From the NCBI GenBank assembly GCA_964342905.1, contig CAYFIG010000001.1, positions 1-37,225 of the forward strand: a stretch of DNA of 37,225 nt, given 5' to 3'. This DNA comes from an uncultured bacterium. GTDB lineage: Bacteria > Methylomirabilota > Methylomirabilia > Rokubacteriales > CSP1-6. Both the position numbers and the translations under genes were made by a program. Position 1 is the first letter of the stretch; the number at the start of each line of letters is the position of its first letter. Below are positions 2,940 to 9,715 of the stretch, in pieces. The notes below the pieces were generated by a model that saw only the letters and a list, made by a program, of their open reading frames with translations, made no database searches and was not told the DNA's origin.

Positions 2940-3139
2940 GCCGTGGCGGTCAGGCCGATGGCCTCGGCGTACTTCAGGTACGTCTCGACTGAGGCCACCA
3001 CTACCCGGGCCTCGATGGCCAGAAGCTCGATCCCCACCAGGGAGAGACGAACCCAGGCATCGATGACCACGCCCTTATCCAGGATCCGGTCGACCACTTC
3101 CACCAGGCTGGACGACGCGATTGCCTTCTCTACTGCCAT
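2924..3139 (-). CDS. gvpA: major gas vesicle structural protein GvpA
   Basis: 71 aa: [64 protein letters not shown]... This is the near-invariant GvpA core. I place the start at the ATG at 3139 rather than the GTG at 3145 used in the track. The SD AGGAGGTGA lies upstream. Confidence 0.97.
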
Positions 3140-5280: not shown

Positions 5281-5316
5281 AACCTGGTGAAATTCCCTCT
5301 GGGCGCCCGACCAGAA

Positions 5317-5350
5317 CTATGGCAACAACTCCCTGGGCCGGATGCCATAG
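5317..5350. promoter_or_regulatory. 8-bp perfect inverted repeat CTATGGCA-N18-TGCCATAG; candidate enhancer (UAS) for the sigma54 activator
   Basis: The arms at 5317-5324 and 5343-5350 are exact reverse complements. The repeat is roughly 125-160 nt upstream of the -24 element at 5192. Confidence 0.4.
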
Positions 5351-5493: not shown

Positions 5494-6891
5494 TCACGAC
5501 GCCAGGAACTCCTGAGTCAAGATGCCGTAGCGCTTCATCTTAAGGTGCAGGGTCTTATAGTCGGTCTTGAGGACCCGGGCCGCCTCGCTCTTGTTACCTT
5601 TGGTGGCCTCGAGGGCCAGGCGGATCACCTGCCGCTCCGCCTCAGCGATGGCCGTTTTCCTCGTTTCTTTCAGGGAGAGACCCACCGCTCCGGGCCCCCA
5701 CTCTGCGGCTGAAGGTGCCCCCAGAGATCCGGCCCCCAGGGCCGCGAGATGCTCCGGCCTGATCACATCCGGGCTCAGCAGGACAGTCCTGCGAATGGCG
5801 TTCCTGAGTTCGCGAGCGTTGCCCGGCCAGGGATGGTCGAGGAGAAACTGGGCTGCCTCCTCTGATAGCCCCCGCACCGGCCGCTTTAGCTCCATGCTGG
5901 CTTCTTCCAGAAAGCGCTTGGCCAAGTAGAGGATGTCTTCCTTCCGCGCCCGGAGGGGCGGAAGGGTGATGGCGAACTCGTTCAGGCGGTAGTAGAGGTC
6001 CTGCCTGAACCGGCCGGCTCGCATCTCCTTCTCCAGCGGGAGGTTGGAGGCGGCGATGATCCGCACGTCCACCGAGACCGTGCGTTTGGCACCCAGGGGC
6101 TGCACCCGTCGCTCCTGCAGGACCCGCAGGAGCTTCGACTGGGTGGTCAACGGGAGGTTAACGATCTCGTCGAGGAAGAAGCTTCCCCCCTCGGCAAGGT
6201 GAAAATGGCCCTCCTTCTTCCTGTCGGCACCGGTAAAGGCCCCTTTCTCGTAGCCGAACAGCTCCGACTCGATCAGCGTCTCGGGGATGGCCCCGCAGTC
6301 CAGGGCGATGAAGGGGTTCTCGTGTCGGGCGCTCTGCTGGTGGATAGCCCGGGCCACCAGTTCCTTGCCCGTTCCCGTCTCCCCCTGGATGAGGACGGTA
6401 AAGGTCGACCCAGCCACCTGCCTCACCTGCTGGATGACCTTTTGGATCTCCGGAGTCCGACCCATCAACTCCCCGAGGGAGCCACCCGCGCCGAGCTGAC
6501 TCCTGAGCGCCTCGAGCTCGGCCAGCAGCGCCTGCCGCTCGAGGGCCTGCCGCACGGTCAGGATGATCTGATCGTTGTGAAACGGCTTGGTGAGGAAGTC
6601 GTAAGCCCCCAGCCGGAGGGCCTGGACCGCTGCGGGGATGTCCCCGTAGGCCGTGAGCATGATCACCGGAAGTGCGGGAGCGATCACCTTGAGCTTGGCG
6701 AGAGTCTCCATCCCGTCGAGCCCTGGCATCTTGAGATCCAGGATGACGGCTGCGGGAGCCTCCGCCAGGACCCGGTCCAGGGCGGCCTGGCCGTCCTCCG
6801 CCTCGACTACCTCGAACCCTTCGACGCAGAGCACCTCCGCCAAGAGCCAGCGCATATCGGCTACGTCATCAACCACCAGGATCTTTGGCAT
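5494..6891 (-). CDS. NtrC-family sigma54-dependent response regulator (REC + AAA+ sigma54-interaction + Fis-type HTH)
   Basis: 465 aa counted from MPKILVVDD. Walker A GETGTGKE, sigma54-contact loop GAFTGA, and C-terminal HTH GNKSEAARVLKTDYKTLHLKMKRYGI. The 26-codon N-terminal extension in the track overlaps the upstream gene and is not REC-like. Confidence 0.93.
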   Translation of the reverse strand: MPKILVVDDVADMRWLLAEVLCVEGFEVVEAEDGQAALDRVLAEAPAAVILDLKMPGLDGMETLAKLKVIAPALPVIMLTAYGDIPAAVQALRLGAYDFLTKPFHNDQIILTVRQALERQALLAELEALRSQLGAGGSLGELMGRTPEIQKVIQQVRQVAGSTFTVLIQGETGTGKELVARAIHQQSARHENPFIALDCGAIPETLIESELFGYEKGAFTGADRKKEGHFHLAEGGSFFLDEIVNLPLTTQSKLLRVLQERRVQPLGAKRTVSVDVRIIAASNLPLEKEMRAGRFRQDLYYRLNEFAITLPPLRARKEDILYLAKRFLEEASMELKRPVRGLSEEAAQFLLDHPWPGNARELRNAIRRTVLLSPDVIRPEHLAALGAGSLGAPSAAEWGPGAVGLSLKETRKTAIAEAERQVIRLALEATKGNKSEAARVLKTDYKTLHLKMKRYGILTQEFLAS

Positions 6892-7558
6892 TTTTGCCCG
6901 GCTCCTGTCCGGTGCTTCCCGACGTCTCAAGATCCAGCATCGGTCCGACTCCCGGGTGGAACGTGGCAACGGGCTCGACGATAGCGGAAAGCCGCCGAAT
7001 CACCTGGGTGATTCGCTCGCAGCGTTCGAGGATGACCTTTACCCTCTCGACAGCCTTCGCTTCCCTCAGCTCTCTCTCCAGCATCTCGGCGTGGCCAACG
7101 ATAGCGGCCAGAGGGTTATTAATCTCGTGGCTCAGCGCACGCGCCGCCTCCAGGAGGGTCGCAACCTTGGCGGCCCTGAGGGACGCTGCTTCCAGATCCC
7201 TCTTTTCCAACGCCCTTCTCACGGTGAAGACGATCTCGTCGTTGTCAAACGGCTTGGTGAGGAAGTCGTAGGCCCCCAGCCGGAGGGCCTGGACGGCGGA
7301 GGGCAGATCGCCATAGGCAGTGACGATCACGACGAGCATATGGGGAGCCACCGCCCTTGCCTGCTCCAGAACCTGGATGCCTTCGAGCCCCGGCATCCTA
7401 AGATCTAGGAGGACCACGTCCGGGGGCTCGCGCGTGATCTGCTCGAGGGCAGCCTGGCCGTCCTCTGCCGCGACCACCTGGAAACCCTGATCTCGGAGCA
7501 CACCCGTCAGGAGCCAGCGCATGTCGGGCTCGTCATCCGCCACTAGCGCTTTCGGCAT
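6869..7558 (-). CDS. receiver domain fused to a HisKA/DHp domain, with no HATPase_c catalytic domain
   Basis: 229 aa. The REC domain (MPKALVADDE...TKPF) is followed by the H-box ALSHEINNPLAAIVGHAEML and about 60 further residues, with no N/G1/G2 boxes. The REC domain is paralogous to the REC of the next gene. Confidence 0.85.
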   Translation of the reverse strand: MPKALVADDEPDMRWLLTGVLRDQGFQVVAAEDGQAALEQITREPPDVVLLDLRMPGLEGIQVLEQARAVAPHMLVVIVTAYGDLPSAVQALRLGAYDFLTKPFDNDEIVFTVRRALEKRDLEAASLRAAKVATLLEAARALSHEINNPLAAIVGHAEMLERELREAKAVERVKVILERCERITQVIRRLSAIVEPVATFHPGVGPMLDLETSGSTGQEPGKNAKDPGG

Positions 7559-7822
7559 TGCCAGCTTCGTTATCCCACCCGGGCCTGAACGCTCTTAGGA
7601 ACCATGGCCGGAGAAAAGCGATGAATCAGCTTTCGTGTGCCCGCTGGCTTTCTACAATCGAAGATGCGAACGAGGTGAAACCGAGCGGGGGCTGCCACCC
7701 AGCTCGAACGGAATCACCGATACGCTCGTCATCGGGGTAAGATTCGGGCATCAACCGATGACAGCCCTACTACCTCACGTGGCTACTCCCTTCCCTTAAA
7801 CGATGAATTTCTCGGGGAGAAC

Positions 7823-7846
7823 GAAAAAGACAGACGGAGACCGTCT
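7823..7846 (-). terminator. intrinsic-terminator-like hairpin plus U-tract
   Basis: The minus-strand RNA reads AGACGG-UCU-CCGUCU followed by GUCUUUUUCGUUCU. That is a 6-bp stem with a 3-nt loop and a U-rich tail. The upstream segments GGAGAC and UCUGG can pair alternatively with GUCUCC and CCAGA. Confidence 0.45.
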
Positions 7847-7945
7847 CTGGAAAACCGCGAGTCTCCAGACCGGGAGCGTTGGTCGTGAACCGGTTTCGTG
7901 GTTTCCACCAACGAATGTGCAAAGTCGGTTTCGCCAAACGCTACC

Positions 7946-7960
7946 GCAAGCTCCGTGCCA
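7946..7960 (-). promoter_or_regulatory. sigma54 (-24/-12) promoter, exact consensus match
   Basis: The minus strand reads TGGCACG-GAGC-TTGC, which equals the consensus TGGCACG-N4-TTGC. It is about 390 nt upstream of the REC-DHp gene start (7558) and about 100 nt upstream of the hairpin at 7823-7846. Confidence 0.7.
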
Positions 7961-8164
7961 AATCCCAAGCACCCCGCTTGCGCAGCAGTTCCGAGTAATA
8001 AAGGAGGTCTCTAGCGCCTGCCGCGTCTCCCATAGAGGCCAGAAGGCCCTTCAGTCTGCCACTTCGAATCAGCGCGTCATAGCTGGGAGTGGCGGGCAGC
8101 CTGGCCGGTTAAGCCTTTTTGCCGGAAGGGACCATTCGCGTTGTCACTTCATTCAATTTTTCTT

Positions 8165-8194
8165 TTTTATCCACTTTTCCCCGTGGCTTGTCAA
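8165..8194 (-). promoter_or_regulatory. sigma70-like promoter (TTGACA-N18-ATAAAA with TGn extended -10)
   Basis: The minus strand has TTGACA (8194-8189), an 18-nt spacer ending in TGG, then ATAAAA (8170-8165). It lies in an AT-rich patch of the non-coding gap. No convincing ORF follows. Confidence 0.3.
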
Positions 8195-8596
8195 GGGCCA
8201 GGCGAGAGGCGTCCGTTGAGAAATTAGAAATAGGGGTCGAGGTTCCGTTGCACGCTTCTTCTCGGAGCCCCTCCAAGCTGAAAAAGTGGACGCGTCTACG
8301 GGCACGGGAGCGCGAAGACAACCCTACAAACCCTTTCATCGCCGCCCCCGGTCCTGCACCGGCTCCGGTGCCGGCAGGCCTTGCGCTGCGCCCGACCGCC
8401 GGATGGAACACCGGGCCTCGGCGATTCCGATCCCTCCCACACACTCTCTTTCCGAAAAAGGGAAGCAATTACAAAGCCAATACGAGTAGCGTTCCACGTG
8501 TTTACGTGAAGTGGTTGATTATCTGGCTTTACTTCGGGCTCAGGGGGGGGAGGAGGTTCCGACTTGAATTCAACGAAAATCCCGCGCTGGAGGTGT

Positions 8597-9715
8597 TTAG
8601 AGCGTCCGATAGAGGTCGGCAAACGCGCGGACCTGGGACGCGAAGGTGAACGGGCGGACAGCGGCGCGCGCGCGCTCAGTCATGAGGGCCGGTTCAGCGT
8701 TTCTGAGCGCCTCCAGCCCGTTGGCGATGGCCGCAGGATCTTCGGGGTTCTCGAGGATCCAGCCGGTCTCGTCGTGACTTACGACTTCAGCCCCGCCGCT
8801 CCTTCCGCTCGCCAGGACCGGGAGCCCCGCGGCCAAGGCCTCGAGGTGGACATTGCCAAAGGGCTCATAGAGAGAGGGGAGGGCGACCACATCCGCCGCG
8901 GCGTAGAAGCGTTCCACGTCGGGGCGCGACCCGGCCCAAGCCAGACGTCCTGCGACGCCAAGTCGCTCGGCGACGGCGCGATAGGGCCCTGGACTCCCCT
9001 TCCCGACCACCAGGAGCCATGCGCCGCGGCCGCGGAATCTGGCGAATCCCTCGATGAGGGGACCCAGGCCCTTCCGCTCGAACCCCGAACCGACCATGAG
9101 GATGACCCAGGCATCCCTCGGGATCCCGAACTCGGCCCGGATCGCCGGACCGAACCGCTTCCGGTGATCCGGATGAAAGCGCTCCTGATCCACGCCGTTG
9201 TAAATCACCGTGAGCCGGGACTCGGGCACCCCGTAGAGCCTCCGGATCTCCTCTCGCCCCTGGCGCGAGATGGCAACGATCCTCCGGGTTGAGCCCGAGG
9301 TAAAGATTCTGCGCTCAAGCGACAAGAGCAACAGGTGGGAGGGATTGGCTCGAAGTGCGAGCCGCCTTGCGCTCCCCAGGTGCCGCGCCTTGACTCTAAG
9401 ATAGGCTCGATGGCACCCCTCTCCGGCTCGGTAGATATCCTGCGTGAGGCTCCGTTCGTGGCTCTGAACCACGTCAAAGCGATCCCGCACGACCCCCATG
9501 CGGGCAGCCAGGACGAATGAGATGAGGCGCGCCGGTGGCGGATACGGGATCACTGGGAGTCGGTGAAGCGTCGCTCCCGGGACCGGGAACTGCCCTGGAG
9601 GGCTGAAGAGATGGAGATCGTATCCCTGCCTCACGAACTCCTCGATCAGCCCCGCGGTGGCGTTCTCCAGGCCGCCGTAGAAGACAAACGGACGGCAGAT
9701 GATGGCCACTCTCAC
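8597..9715 (-). CDS. glycosyltransferase family 4, WaaG/RfaG-like (LPS core glycosyltransferase)
   Basis: 372 aa. FVFYGGLENA, DIYRAGEGCHRAYL, MVGSGFERKGL and the E-x7-E region resemble WaaG. This is the last gene of the LPS operon. Confidence 0.85.
   Translation of the reverse strand: MRVAIICRPFVFYGGLENATAGLIEEFVRQGYDLHLFSPPGQFPVPGATLHRLPVIPYPPPARLISFVLAARMGVVRDRFDVVQSHERSLTQDIYRAGEGCHRAYLRVKARHLGSARRLALRANPSHLLLLSLERRIFTSGSTRRIVAISRQGREEIRRLYGVPESRLTVIYNGVDQERFHPDHRKRFGPAIRAEFGIPRDAWVILMVGSGFERKGLGPLIEGFARFRGRGAWLLVVGKGSPGPYRAVAERLGVAGRLAWAGSRPDVERFYAAADVVALPSLYEPFGNVHLEALAAGLPVLASGRSGGAEVVSHDETGWILENPEDPAAIANGLEALRNAEPALMTERARAAVRPFTFASQVRAFADLYRTL

What the first reader, a model, noticed from the sequence alone, without database searches (positions are those of the whole stretch)
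7823..7960. Consensus-perfect sigma54 promoter followed about 100 nt later by a terminator hairpin: candidate sigma54-dependent sRNA or attenuated leader
The minus strand at 7960-7946 reads TGGCACGGAGCTTGC, an exact match to TGGCACG-N4-TTGC. About 100 nt downstream lies AGACGG-UCU-CCGUCU followed by GUCUUUUUCGUUCU.

No ORF with a start codon and SD fits in between.

Upstream segments can pair with the terminator in a mutually exclusive way (GGAGAC with GUCUCC, UCUGG with CCAGA). That is attenuator-like.

Two readings are possible. One is a roughly 110-nt sigma54-dependent small RNA next to the gvp regulators. The other is a long (about 375 nt) attenuated leader giving autoregulation of the REC-DHp/NtrC-like operon.
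Basis: partly seen in the sequence, partly recalled or inferred. Interest (0 to 1): 0.62.

Follow-up and report, generated by a model that had tools for sequence, protein, structure and literature searches.

The report
Sigma-54 promoter with dead-kinase leader
The sigma-54 promoter is real and conserved, but the RNA after it is the leftover front and tail of a deleted sensor-kinase gene, and the "terminator" hairpin is weak, lineage-specific and no commoner than chance.

Summary
TGGCACGGAGCTTGC lies at 7960-7946(-). The hairpin AGACGG-UCU-CCGUCU plus GUCUUUUU lies at 7846-7822(-).

The promoter is credible. rpoN is present in the genome. The looser motif TGGCAY-N5-TTGM is 2-37 times commoner than its reversed control in this genome and four relatives. 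A sigma-54-type motif also sits upstream of the orthologous operon in at least six related loci.

The roughly 376-nt "leader" is not a dedicated regulatory RNA. In ten related Rokubacteria loci a ~420-526-aa REC-(PAS)-HisKA-HATPase kinase (HK1) lies between this promoter and the REC-HisKA gene.
- Window 7659-7559 is the decayed 3' end of HK1 (nhmmer E 2e-24, premature TGA).
- Window 7945-7790 is homologous to the HK1 5'UTR of relative G161 (z 7.1).

The hairpin is weak (-6.5 to -7.8 kcal/mol). About 0.15 such motifs are expected by chance in a leader of this size. It is broken in both alignable homologues. Rfam, paralogue and leader-peptide searches found nothing.

Best reading: an ancestral operon promoter now reading through a kinase-deletion scar into REC-HisKA and the NtrC-like activator. 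The scan did not find this before on other DNA.

The parts
7946..7960 (-). Sigma-54 promoter P1: TGGCACGGAGCTTGC, with GG at -24 and GC at -12 separated by 10 nt. The predicted TSS near 7934 is inferred.
   Evidence: An independent assembly, L207, carries it with G7945A, giving TTGCA, which is closer to the consensus. Similar motifs lie upstream of the orthologous operon in G027, G159, G161, L212, L213 and L214.
7790..7945 (-). Ancestral 5'UTR of the lost kinase gene HK1.
   Evidence: The global alignment to the G161 HK1 5'UTR scores 12, against 2.2 +/- 1.4 in 500 dinucleotide shuffles (z 7.1, 0/500). The multiple alignment with G161, L213 and L214 shows shared sequence blocks.
7822..7846 (-). 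Hairpin AGACGG-UCU-CCGUCU (7846-7832) followed by GUCUUUUUCG. This is the proposed terminator.
   Evidence: -6.5 kcal/mol for the core and -7.8 extended. It is not in the consensus fold with G161. Two to three of its six pairs are broken in G161 and L213, and there is no compensatory change.
7770..7795 (-). Relic of the HK1 ribosome-binding site and start codon: GGGAAGGGAGTAGCCACGTGAGGTAG. It has no usable start and TAG stops follow.
   Evidence: It lines up with G161 GGGGAGGAGGTGAGCCATGGGGTAGG and L214 AGCAGAGAGGTAAGCCATGGGAGAG. This is suggestive only. Tested alone, 7800-7660 is not significantly similar to the HK1 5' regions.
7660..7769 (-). Unassignable stretch between the two remnants. 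It may be a decayed HK1 5' coding part plus the deletion junction.
   Evidence: MAFFT places GCAGCCCCCGCTCG opposite HK1 codons ~50-54 (QPPL). Shuffle tests are not significant. The 41-aa ORF 7751-7626 has no SD and no significant protein match.
7559..7659 (-). Decayed 3' end of HK1, with a premature TGA and a 1-nt deletion. It runs up to the REC-HisKA start.
   Evidence: nhmmer with a profile of four relatives' HK1 genes gives E 2.2e-24.
6869..7558 (-). REC-HisKA protein, 229 aa, intact. It is the first gene downstream of the promoter.
   Evidence: Pfam Response_reg plus HisKA. It is 70-88% identical to its orthologues.
5494..6891 (-). NtrC-like sigma-54 activator (REC-AAA+-HTH_8), 465 aa. 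ATG at 6891 follows an AGGAG SD.
8166..8194 (-). Sigma-70-like promoter TTGACA-N17-GATAAA inside an A-rich island, about 205 nt upstream of P1.
   Evidence: The same CTTGACMA plus A/T-rich element lies upstream of HK1 in G011, L209 and L215, which lack a sigma-54 motif. It falls outside the criteria of the promoter scan tool.

Best explanation
The window belongs to a Rokubacteria (Methylomirabilota) MAG, by the source names of the orthologous proteins. It carries a genuine, ancestrally conserved sigma-54 promoter, P1. P1 belongs to the regulatory operon that precedes a gas-vesicle gene cluster.

In relatives, P1 is followed after a 30-150-nt UTR by a hybrid sensor kinase (HK1: REC-PAS-HisKA-HATPase). 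Then come the REC-HisKA protein and the NtrC-like activator. In this lineage almost all of HK1 has been deleted. What remains is its 5'UTR, a broken start region, about 110 nt of unassignable sequence and its last 101 nt.

Inferred, not shown: when an activator fires P1, RNA polymerase starts near 7934 and reads through this ~376-nt non-coding scar into REC-HisKA and the NtrC-like gene. The 6-bp hairpin with its U-run lies in the old UTR. It is most likely an incidental local feature that at most causes some leaky pausing or termination. It is not a dedicated terminator of an sRNA or an attenuator.

A sigma-70-like promoter about 205 nt further upstream may provide a second, sigma-54-independent entry into the same operon.
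For: **Context**
- GvpN is at 58-972 (TIGR02640, 339 bits). The REC-HisKA, NtrC-like, PAS-kinase and REC genes are identified.
- rpoN is present.

**HK1 precedes REC-HisKA elsewhere**
- It does so in G011, G027, G159 and G161.
- It also does so in L208, L212, L213, L214, L215 and L216.
- The closest relative (88% identity) has an ORF ending 22 nt before the gene.

**Remnants in the window**
- The 3' remnant gives E 2.2e-24.
- UTR homology to G161 gives z 7.1.

**The sigma-54 motif is real and recurs**
- TGGCAY-N5-TTGM against its reversed control: 18 v 8, 27 v 7, 52 v 12, 35 v 7 and 37 v 1 in the five genomes.
- P1-type motifs lie 30-150 nt upstream of HK1:
  - G027: TGGCACAGGTCTTGC
  - L212: TGGCATGCGGCTTGC
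  - G159: TGGCACGGGAATTGA
  - G161: TGGCATATTTCTTGA
  - L214: TGGCACGAGTTTTGA
  - L213: TGGCACAGAAATTGT

**Assembly check**
- An independent single-sample contig, L207, reproduces promoter, leader and gene at 99.7% identity with no gaps. The kinase-less arrangement is therefore not a binning or assembly artefact.

**The hairpin is unremarkable**
- It is weak and at chance frequency.
- It is not conserved.
Against: - The TSS, read-through and any 3' end near 7824 are untested.
- The exact strict motif is no commoner genome-wide than its reversed control (2 v 2; broader scoring).
- Three relatives carry TTGA or TTGT instead of TTGC at -12. This departs from the canonical GC.
- The middle of the leader (7790-7660) cannot be shown statistically to derive from HK1.
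- No enhancer (UAS) was identified for P1.
- The hairpin and U5 run are specific to this lineage. That is also what a newly evolved terminator would look like.
Confidence: 0.7

Rival explanations
1. A ~105-110-nt sigma-54-dependent small RNA. P1 fires, transcription ends at the hairpin and U-run near 7824, and the short RNA acts in trans. It might have been exapted from the orphaned UTR after the kinase was lost.
For: - The promoter matches the consensus perfectly.
- A hairpin with a U5 run lies about 100 nt downstream.
- No coding potential lies in between.
- Everything downstream as far as REC-HisKA is dead sequence.
- The hairpin and the U5 run are derived in this lineage relative to G161 and L213.
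Against: - The hairpin has 6 bp and a 3-nt loop. Its energy is -6.5 to -7.8 kcal/mol, and the U-run is separated from the stem by GUC.
- About 0.15 such motifs are expected by chance.
- The 122-nt RNA folds no better than shuffles (z -1.0).
- No Rfam family matches.
- There is no paralogue in the genome.
- No homologue was found in 183 genomes of the order, apart from UTRs that precede an intact kinase.
- The homologous RNA in relatives is an mRNA 5'UTR.
Confidence: 0.1
2. A transcription attenuator. Mutually exclusive pairings (GGAGAC/GUCUCC against the terminator stem) set the fraction of P1 transcripts that reach REC-HisKA/NtrC, giving dosage control or autoregulation.
For: - The alternative 6-bp pairing 7866-7861 with 7841-7836 overlaps the terminator stem.
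- The leader is long.
Against: - There is no sensing device: no leader peptide with an SD and no riboswitch or T-box hit.
- The second proposed pairing (UCUGG/CCAGA) coexists with the terminator in the minimum-free-energy fold.
- The pairings are not conserved and show no covariation.
- Relatives with an intact kinase have no terminator at this place.
- The conserved P2 enhancer is absent upstream of P1, so autoregulation has no support.
Confidence: 0.07
3. P1 is a non-functional fossil. After the kinase was lost the promoter no longer matters, and REC-HisKA/NtrC are transcribed from the upstream sigma-70-like promoter or by read-through from the LPS operon.
For: - A sigma-70-like TTGACA-N17-GATAAA lies at 8194-8166. 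The same type of element replaces the sigma-54 motif in G011, L209 and L215.
- In Serratia the gvrA regulator operon has a sigma-70 promoter (PMC4982088).
- No UAS was found for P1.
Against: - P1 is the best consensus match of all its orthologues, although the flanking UTR has diverged to barely alignable similarity from G161.
- The population variant L207 changes the next base towards the consensus.
- The deletion appears young. The closest relative still has an ORF there, so an intact fossil is also possible.
Confidence: 0.12

Closest known systems
Serratia sp. ATCC 39006 gas-vesicle regulation: GvrA (NtrC-like), GvrB (kinase), GvrC (receiver), with a sigma-54 promoter at gvpA1 and a sigma-70 promoter at gvrA (PMC4982088)
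   Same: An NtrC-family sigma-54 activator, a histidine kinase and a CheY-like receiver are encoded next to gvp genes. A sigma-54 promoter drives the structural genes (P2 here, 5192-5178).
   Different: - Here the regulator operon itself carries a sigma-54 promoter (P1). In Serratia the mapped gvrA promoter is sigma-70 type.
- Here an extra kinase (HK1) and a REC-HisKA protein precede the activator.
- In this lineage HK1 has been deleted.
Sigma-54-dependent small RNAs: Qrr1-5 (LuxO), Pxr of Myxococcus, CrcZ/CrcY (CbrB), GlmY. Recalled from general knowledge, not tested by name apart from the Rfam scan.
   Same: A sigma-54 promoter followed by about 100 nt of non-coding sequence and a hairpin with U residues, next to an NtrC-family gene.
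   Different: - Those RNAs are conserved, have strong terminators and have characteristic structures.
- This stretch matches no Rfam family.
- It has a weak, unconserved hairpin.
- It is homologous to an mRNA 5'UTR in relatives.
Gene remnants (pseudogene scars) left by internal deletion in bacterial operons
   Same: The two ends of a gene are retained in the syntenic position, the frame is disrupted by a premature stop and an indel, and the neighbouring genes are intact.
   Different: The scar now forms the 5' leader of the downstream regulators behind the retained promoter. A second lineage (L209) shows an independent in-frame deletion of the same kinase that leaves an open 116-aa REC-HATPase mini-protein.

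Membership tests
Sigma-54 (RpoN) dependent promoter | GG at -24 and GC at -12 with exact spacing (TGGCAC-N5-TTGC) | tested here: met
   TGGCACGGAGCTTGC at 7960-7946(-), 11 of 11 specified consensus positions.
Sigma-54 (RpoN) dependent promoter | The organism encodes RpoN and an enhancer-binding protein | tested here: met
   Sigma54_DBD at 205.7 bits on contig C45. The NtrC-like activator at 5494-6891 has Sigma54_activat at 235.7 bits.
Sigma-54 (RpoN) dependent promoter | The motif is conserved at the orthologous position in relatives | tested here: met
   G027, L212 and the window have TTGC. G159, G161 and L214 have TTGA. L213 has TTGT. G011, L209 and L215 have none. The motif class is enriched over the reversed control in all five genomes.
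Sigma-54 (RpoN) dependent promoter | An upstream activator binding site (UAS) about 80-200 nt upstream | tested here: inconclusive
   The conserved P2 UAS profile finds nothing upstream of P1. No shared 9-mer exceeds shuffles among seven P1 regions. Local inverted repeats exist but are not conserved.
Sigma-54 (RpoN) dependent promoter | rpoN-dependent transcription start about 12 nt downstream of the GC | not testable with these tools
Intrinsic (Rho-independent) terminator | A stable GC-rich stem-loop immediately followed by a U-tract | tested here: inconclusive
   - The stem has 6 bp (4 GC) and a 3-nt loop.
- Its energy is -6.5 to -7.8 kcal/mol.
- The U5 run starts 3 nt after the stem.
- It passes a permissive pattern scan, but 22 of 200 shuffles fold as well.
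- Such motifs occur at 0.32-0.44 per kb per strand.
Intrinsic (Rho-independent) terminator | Conservation or covariation of the stem in homologous sequences | tested here: not met
   There is no change on both sides of any pair. Two to three of six pairs are broken in G161 and L213. 72% of cells pair, against 74% in shuffles. The orthologous segments fold at -3.6 and -3.7 kcal/mol.
Transcription attenuator / riboswitch leader | A sensor element (leader peptide, ligand aptamer, T-box or protein site) coupled to alternative terminator and antiterminator structures | tested here: not met
   An alternative pairing is possible in the sequence. No ORF has an SD. No Rfam hit reaches even E <= 10, apart from a chance-level Xanthine match elsewhere. 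The leader folds with z = +0.4.
Trans-acting small RNA | A discrete, conserved, structured transcript that is independent of the flanking genes | tested here: not met
   - The fold z-score is -1.0.
- There are no paralogues.
- No homologues exist apart from mRNA UTRs.
- Whether a discrete transcript exists is not testable here.
Pseudogene remnant of the HK1 histidine kinase | Significant homology to the intact gene in the syntenic position, with a disrupted frame | tested here: met
   - The 3' end 7659-7559 gives E 2.2e-24, with a premature TGA and a 1-nt gap.
- Synteny holds in ten loci.
- The 5' coding part is not demonstrable.

The most novel reading that the evidence does not exclude
After the kinase gene was deleted, its orphaned sigma-54 promoter and 5'UTR acquired a hairpin (by a small local duplication of GTCT words) and a U5 run (by a G-to-T change relative to G161). 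Together they now produce a new ~105-110-nt sigma-54-dependent RNA, or a premature-termination checkpoint, that tunes the gas-vesicle regulators. That would be an observable birth of a regulatory RNA from a gene-loss scar.
Probability: 0.1. Interest if true: 0.6.

Novelty: new member of a known kind. Interest (0 to 1): 0.27.

Why it matters
The result turns an apparent sRNA or attenuator candidate into something simpler and checkable: a conserved sigma-54 promoter whose first gene has been deleted.

For gas-vesicle biology, it shows that in these uncultured Rokubacteria the regulatory operon itself is usually under sigma-54 control, unlike the sigma-70 gvrA promoter of Serratia. It also shows that the upstream hybrid kinase is dispensable and has been lost or truncated independently in at least two lineages.

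For genome scanning, it is a caution. Long "structured leaders" behind good promoters can be deletion scars, and the comparison with orthologous operons reveals this quickly.

Tried and rejected
- **Rfam.** The gathering-threshold scan of the whole window found nothing. The E <= 10 scan of 7300-8700 found only a chance-level Xanthine riboswitch hit at 8213-8268.
- **tRNA and tmRNA.** The scan found none.
- **Public contig collections.** The search for related loci in genome contigs and metagenome contigs returned only generic receiver-domain relatives of 49% identity or less.
- **Class-level genome search.** It added no orthologues beyond G011, G027, G159 and G161.
- **tblastn of HK1 against the window.** It found no remnant at protein level. 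Only DNA profile search did.
- **HK1 5' coding remnant in 7800-7660.** Tests against five references were not significant.
- **Strict local DNA alignment of the leader to relatives.** Not significant. Collinear global alignment was needed.
- **P2 enhancer profile upstream of P1.** No hit.
- **De novo shared 9-mers upstream of seven P1 promoters.** No better than shuffles.
- **Genome-wide intergenic enrichment of strict sigma-54 motifs, using crude gene calls.** None. The looser pattern against its reversed control was informative.
- **Closest relative (P0002, 88% identity).** Its contig DNA could not be fetched because the sample file is too large.

Full report
**Observation**

On the minus strand, 7960-7946 reads TGGCACGGAGCTTGC. 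AGACGG-TCT-CCGTCT lies at 7846-7832 and is followed by GTCTTTTTCG at 7831-7822.

No ORF of 10 codons or more inside the predicted transcript has a Shine-Dalgarno sequence. All ORFs in the 1038-bp spacer have flat GC1/2/3 of about 0.55-0.6, whereas neighbouring genes show 0.7/0.42/0.8. The stretch is non-coding.

**Context**

The window is contig C1 of a 2.48-Mb, 487-contig MAG. The source names of the orthologous proteins place it in Candidatus Rokubacteria. On the minus strand the order is as follows.

| Feature | Coordinates |
|---|---|
| LPS cluster (lpxB, kdtA, lpxK, GT9, five GT4 genes) | ends at 8597 |
| Non-coding spacer | 8596-7559 |
| REC-HisKA protein | 7558-6869 |
| NtrC-like sigma-54 activator | 6891-5494 |
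| Second sigma-54 motif, P2 | 5192-5178 |
| PAS kinase, then a receiver, then gas-vesicle genes including gvpN | gvpN at 972-58 (TIGR02640, 339 bits) |

rpoN is present on contig C45.

**What the leader is**

An alignment of the region upstream of REC-HisKA with three related copies showed that they carry coding sequence there. It is the C-terminus of a histidine kinase.

A ~504-526-aa REC-PAS-HisKA-HATPase kinase (HK1) directly precedes the REC-HisKA gene in these loci:
- all four relatives found by whole-genome search (G011, G027, G159, G161);
- L212, L213, L214, L215 and L216.

L208 has a 421-aa version without PAS. The closest relative (P0002, 88% identity) has an ORF that ends 22 nt before the gene.

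A DNA profile of the four HK1 genes matches window 7659-7559 with E 2.2e-24. The match has a premature TGA and a 1-nt deletion. This is the dead 3' end of HK1.

The stretch from just after the promoter to 7790 is collinear with, and significantly similar to, the HK1 5'UTR of G161. The score is 12 against 2.2 +/- 1.4 in shuffles (z 7.1, 0/500).

The sequence GGGAAGGGAGTAGCCACGTGAGGTAG at 7795-7770 lines up with the ribosome-binding site and start of HK1 in G161 and L214. It has no usable start codon.

The 110-130 nt between the start relic and the 3' remnant look in places like HK1 codons ~35-57. This could not be shown statistically, so I treat that piece as unassigned.

An independent single-sample assembly, L207 (ENA ERZ1292634), covers 8269-6862 at 99.7% identity without gaps. 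The kinase-less arrangement is therefore real and not an assembly artefact.

**The promoter**

The strict pattern TGGCACG-N4-TTGC occurs twice in the genome, the same as its reversed control. A broader score shows no intergenic enrichment with crude gene calls. The motif alone would be a weak argument in a 65% GC genome.

The looser pattern TGGCAY-N5-TTGM is clearly enriched over its reversed control in this genome and four relatives: 18 v 8, 27 v 7, 52 v 12, 35 v 7 and 37 v 1. At roughly one site per 100-250 kb, finding one within 30-150 nt upstream of HK1 is not chance.

| Locus | Motif upstream of HK1 |
|---|---|
| G027 | TGGCACAGGTCTTGC |
| L212 | TGGCATGCGGCTTGC |
| G159 | TGGCACGGGAATTGA |
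| G161 | TGGCATATTTCTTGA |
| L214 | TGGCACGAGTTTTGA |
| L213 | TGGCACAGAAATTGT |

Three loci (G011, L209, L215) instead carry a sigma-70-like CTTGACMA element inside an A/T-rich island. The window has that element as well, at 8194-8166, about 205 nt upstream of P1.

P1 is thus the ancestral promoter of the HK1-REC/HisKA-NtrC operon. The population variant L207 has A instead of G at 7945, giving TTGCA.

**The hairpin**

- Its core folds at -6.5 kcal/mol and the extended form at -7.8. Of 200 shuffles of the 33-nt segment, 22 fold at least as well.
- By the same permissive criteria as the scanning tool, such hairpin-plus-T-run motifs occur 1675 times in the genome. That is 0.32 per kb per strand in coding DNA and 0.44 in non-coding DNA, so about 0.15 are expected in a 376-nt leader.
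- The 122-nt putative sRNA folds with z = -1.0, and the whole leader with z = +0.4.
- In the two homologous UTRs that can be aligned across this point (G161, L213), the 3' arm and T-rich run are partly conserved as sequence (TCTCCGTCTG-YTCTTT). The 5' arm is not complementary.
- Two to three of the six pairs are broken, none shows a compensatory change, and 72% of cells pair against 74% in shuffles.
- The orthologous segments fold at -3.6 and -3.7 kcal/mol.
- The RNAalifold consensus of the window and G161 does not contain the hairpin.

Of the two 'mutually exclusive' pairings, GGAGAC/GUCUCC does overlap the stem. UCUGG/CCAGA merely abuts it and coexists with it in the minimum-free-energy fold. 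Both arise from repeated GTCT/AGAC words.

**sRNA and attenuator tests**

- Rfam finds nothing at gathering thresholds in the whole window, and nothing relevant at E <= 10 in 7300-8700.
- The leader has no paralogue in the genome.
- It has no DNA homologue in 40 relatives or in 183 genomes of the order.
- There is no leader peptide.

**Autoregulation**

The neighbouring promoter P2 has a strikingly conserved enhancer in five genomes: GCTATGGCA-N18-TGCCATAGTTCTGGCG-N4-CGCCAGAG. A profile of it finds nothing upstream of P1 in any genome. No 9-mer is shared among seven P1 upstream regions beyond what shuffles give. Which activator serves P1 is unknown, and autoregulation is neither supported nor excluded.

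**Mechanism, with basis**

| Status | Claim |
|---|---|
| Shown | The promoter motif and its conservation at the orthologous place |
| Shown | The HK1 3' remnant |
| Shown | UTR homology to G161 |
| Shown | Lack of conservation of the hairpin |
| Inferred | P1 still fires near 7934 |
| Inferred | Polymerase reads through the ~376-nt scar into the intact REC-HisKA and NtrC-like genes |
| Inferred | The hairpin is incidental or at most a leaky pause |
| Inferred | The upstream sigma-70-like promoter gives a second entry |

The rivals are a new sRNA (about 0.10), an attenuator (about 0.07) and a fossil promoter (about 0.12).

**Comparison with what is known**

The closest described system is Serratia sp. 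ATCC 39006. There GvrA (NtrC-like), GvrB and GvrC control a sigma-54 promoter at gvpA1, while the gvrA operon has a mapped sigma-70 promoter (PMC4982088).

Here the regulator operon usually has a sigma-54 promoter of its own, and sometimes a sigma-70-like one. It also starts with an additional hybrid kinase that is dispensable. That kinase is deleted in this lineage. In L209 it is independently cut down in frame to a 116-aa REC-HATPase mini-protein, in which residues 1-62 are joined to about residue 450 onwards.

Known sigma-54-dependent sRNAs (Qrr, Pxr, CrcZ, GlmY; from general knowledge) share only the superficial layout.

**Verdict**

This is an ordinary kind of feature, a promoter plus a gene-loss scar, in an interesting regulatory neighbourhood.

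Noticed in passing
window 8340-8420 (-): A frameshifted remnant of the C-terminus of a PD-(D/E)XK (Cas4/RecB-like) nuclease. Relatives in several genera encode ...LHAIEAGVFHPNPGWQCKDCQYRSRCW at the matching DNA. The window reads GPVFHPAVGRSARPAG in one frame and QRKACRHRSRCR in another. The 1-kb spacer therefore holds remains of at least two genes.
   Followed up: partly
window 8166-8194 (-); L020 (G011), L209 ~3075-3115, L215 ~62-100: A sigma-70-like TTGACA-N17-GATAAA sits in an A-rich island unusual for a 65% GC genome. The same CTTGACMA plus A/T-rich element lies upstream of HK1 in three relatives that lack a sigma-54 motif. The operon seems to alternate between two promoter types, and the window has both in tandem.
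   Followed up: partly
window 5300-5350 (-) and the orthologous regions of G011, G027, G159, G161: P2 is the sigma-54 promoter ahead of the PAS kinase, receiver and gvpA. It has a highly conserved enhancer, GCTATGGCA-N18-TGCCATAGTTCTGGCG-N4-CGCCAGAG, about 110-170 nt upstream in five genomes. This is very likely the binding site of the NtrC-like activator.
   Followed up: partly
L209 3176-3526 (NCBI JBFOMO010003828.1): An independent in-frame deletion of HK1 leaves an open 116-aa protein. REC residues 1-62 are fused to the last ~50 residues of the HATPase domain (BLASTP E 1e-15 and 4e-19 to the two ends of HK1). The kinase has been lost or truncated at least twice.
   Followed up: yes
own genome contig C485 (L013), 1-1516: A second copy of the module: HK1 3' end, REC-HisKA and the start of the NtrC-like gene. 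Its REC-HisKA is only 77% identical in protein to the window's. It is as distant as the copies in other genera, so it is either an old paralogue or contamination of the MAG. No other part of that HK1 is assembled.
   Followed up: partly
window 7945-7958 and 7969-7982: An imperfect inverted repeat, CGCAAGCGGGGTGC ... GCACGGAGCTTGCG (11 of 14), brackets the -24 element. G161 has a different perfect 8-bp inverted repeat (CTCTCGAA-GCGGGG-TTCGAGAG) at the same place just upstream of its -24 element. This may be a protein site or a hairpin in transcripts coming from further upstream.
   Followed up: no
window 7826-7840 (-); L213 ~1925-1945; L116 (G161): The sequence block TCTCCGTCTG-YTCTTT, which is the 3' arm of the hairpin plus the T-run, is shared with the HK1 5'UTR of L213 and partly with G161, although the hairpin is not. 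The block may matter as sequence, for example as a pyrimidine-rich element ahead of the ribosome-binding site.
   Followed up: partly
whole genome G000: The MAG is 2.48 Mb at an estimated 90% completeness, whereas most relatives in the family are 3.5-6 Mb. Together with two gene remnants in one spacer, this hints at ongoing gene loss. A fragmented assembly of 487 contigs may explain part of the difference.
   Followed up: no
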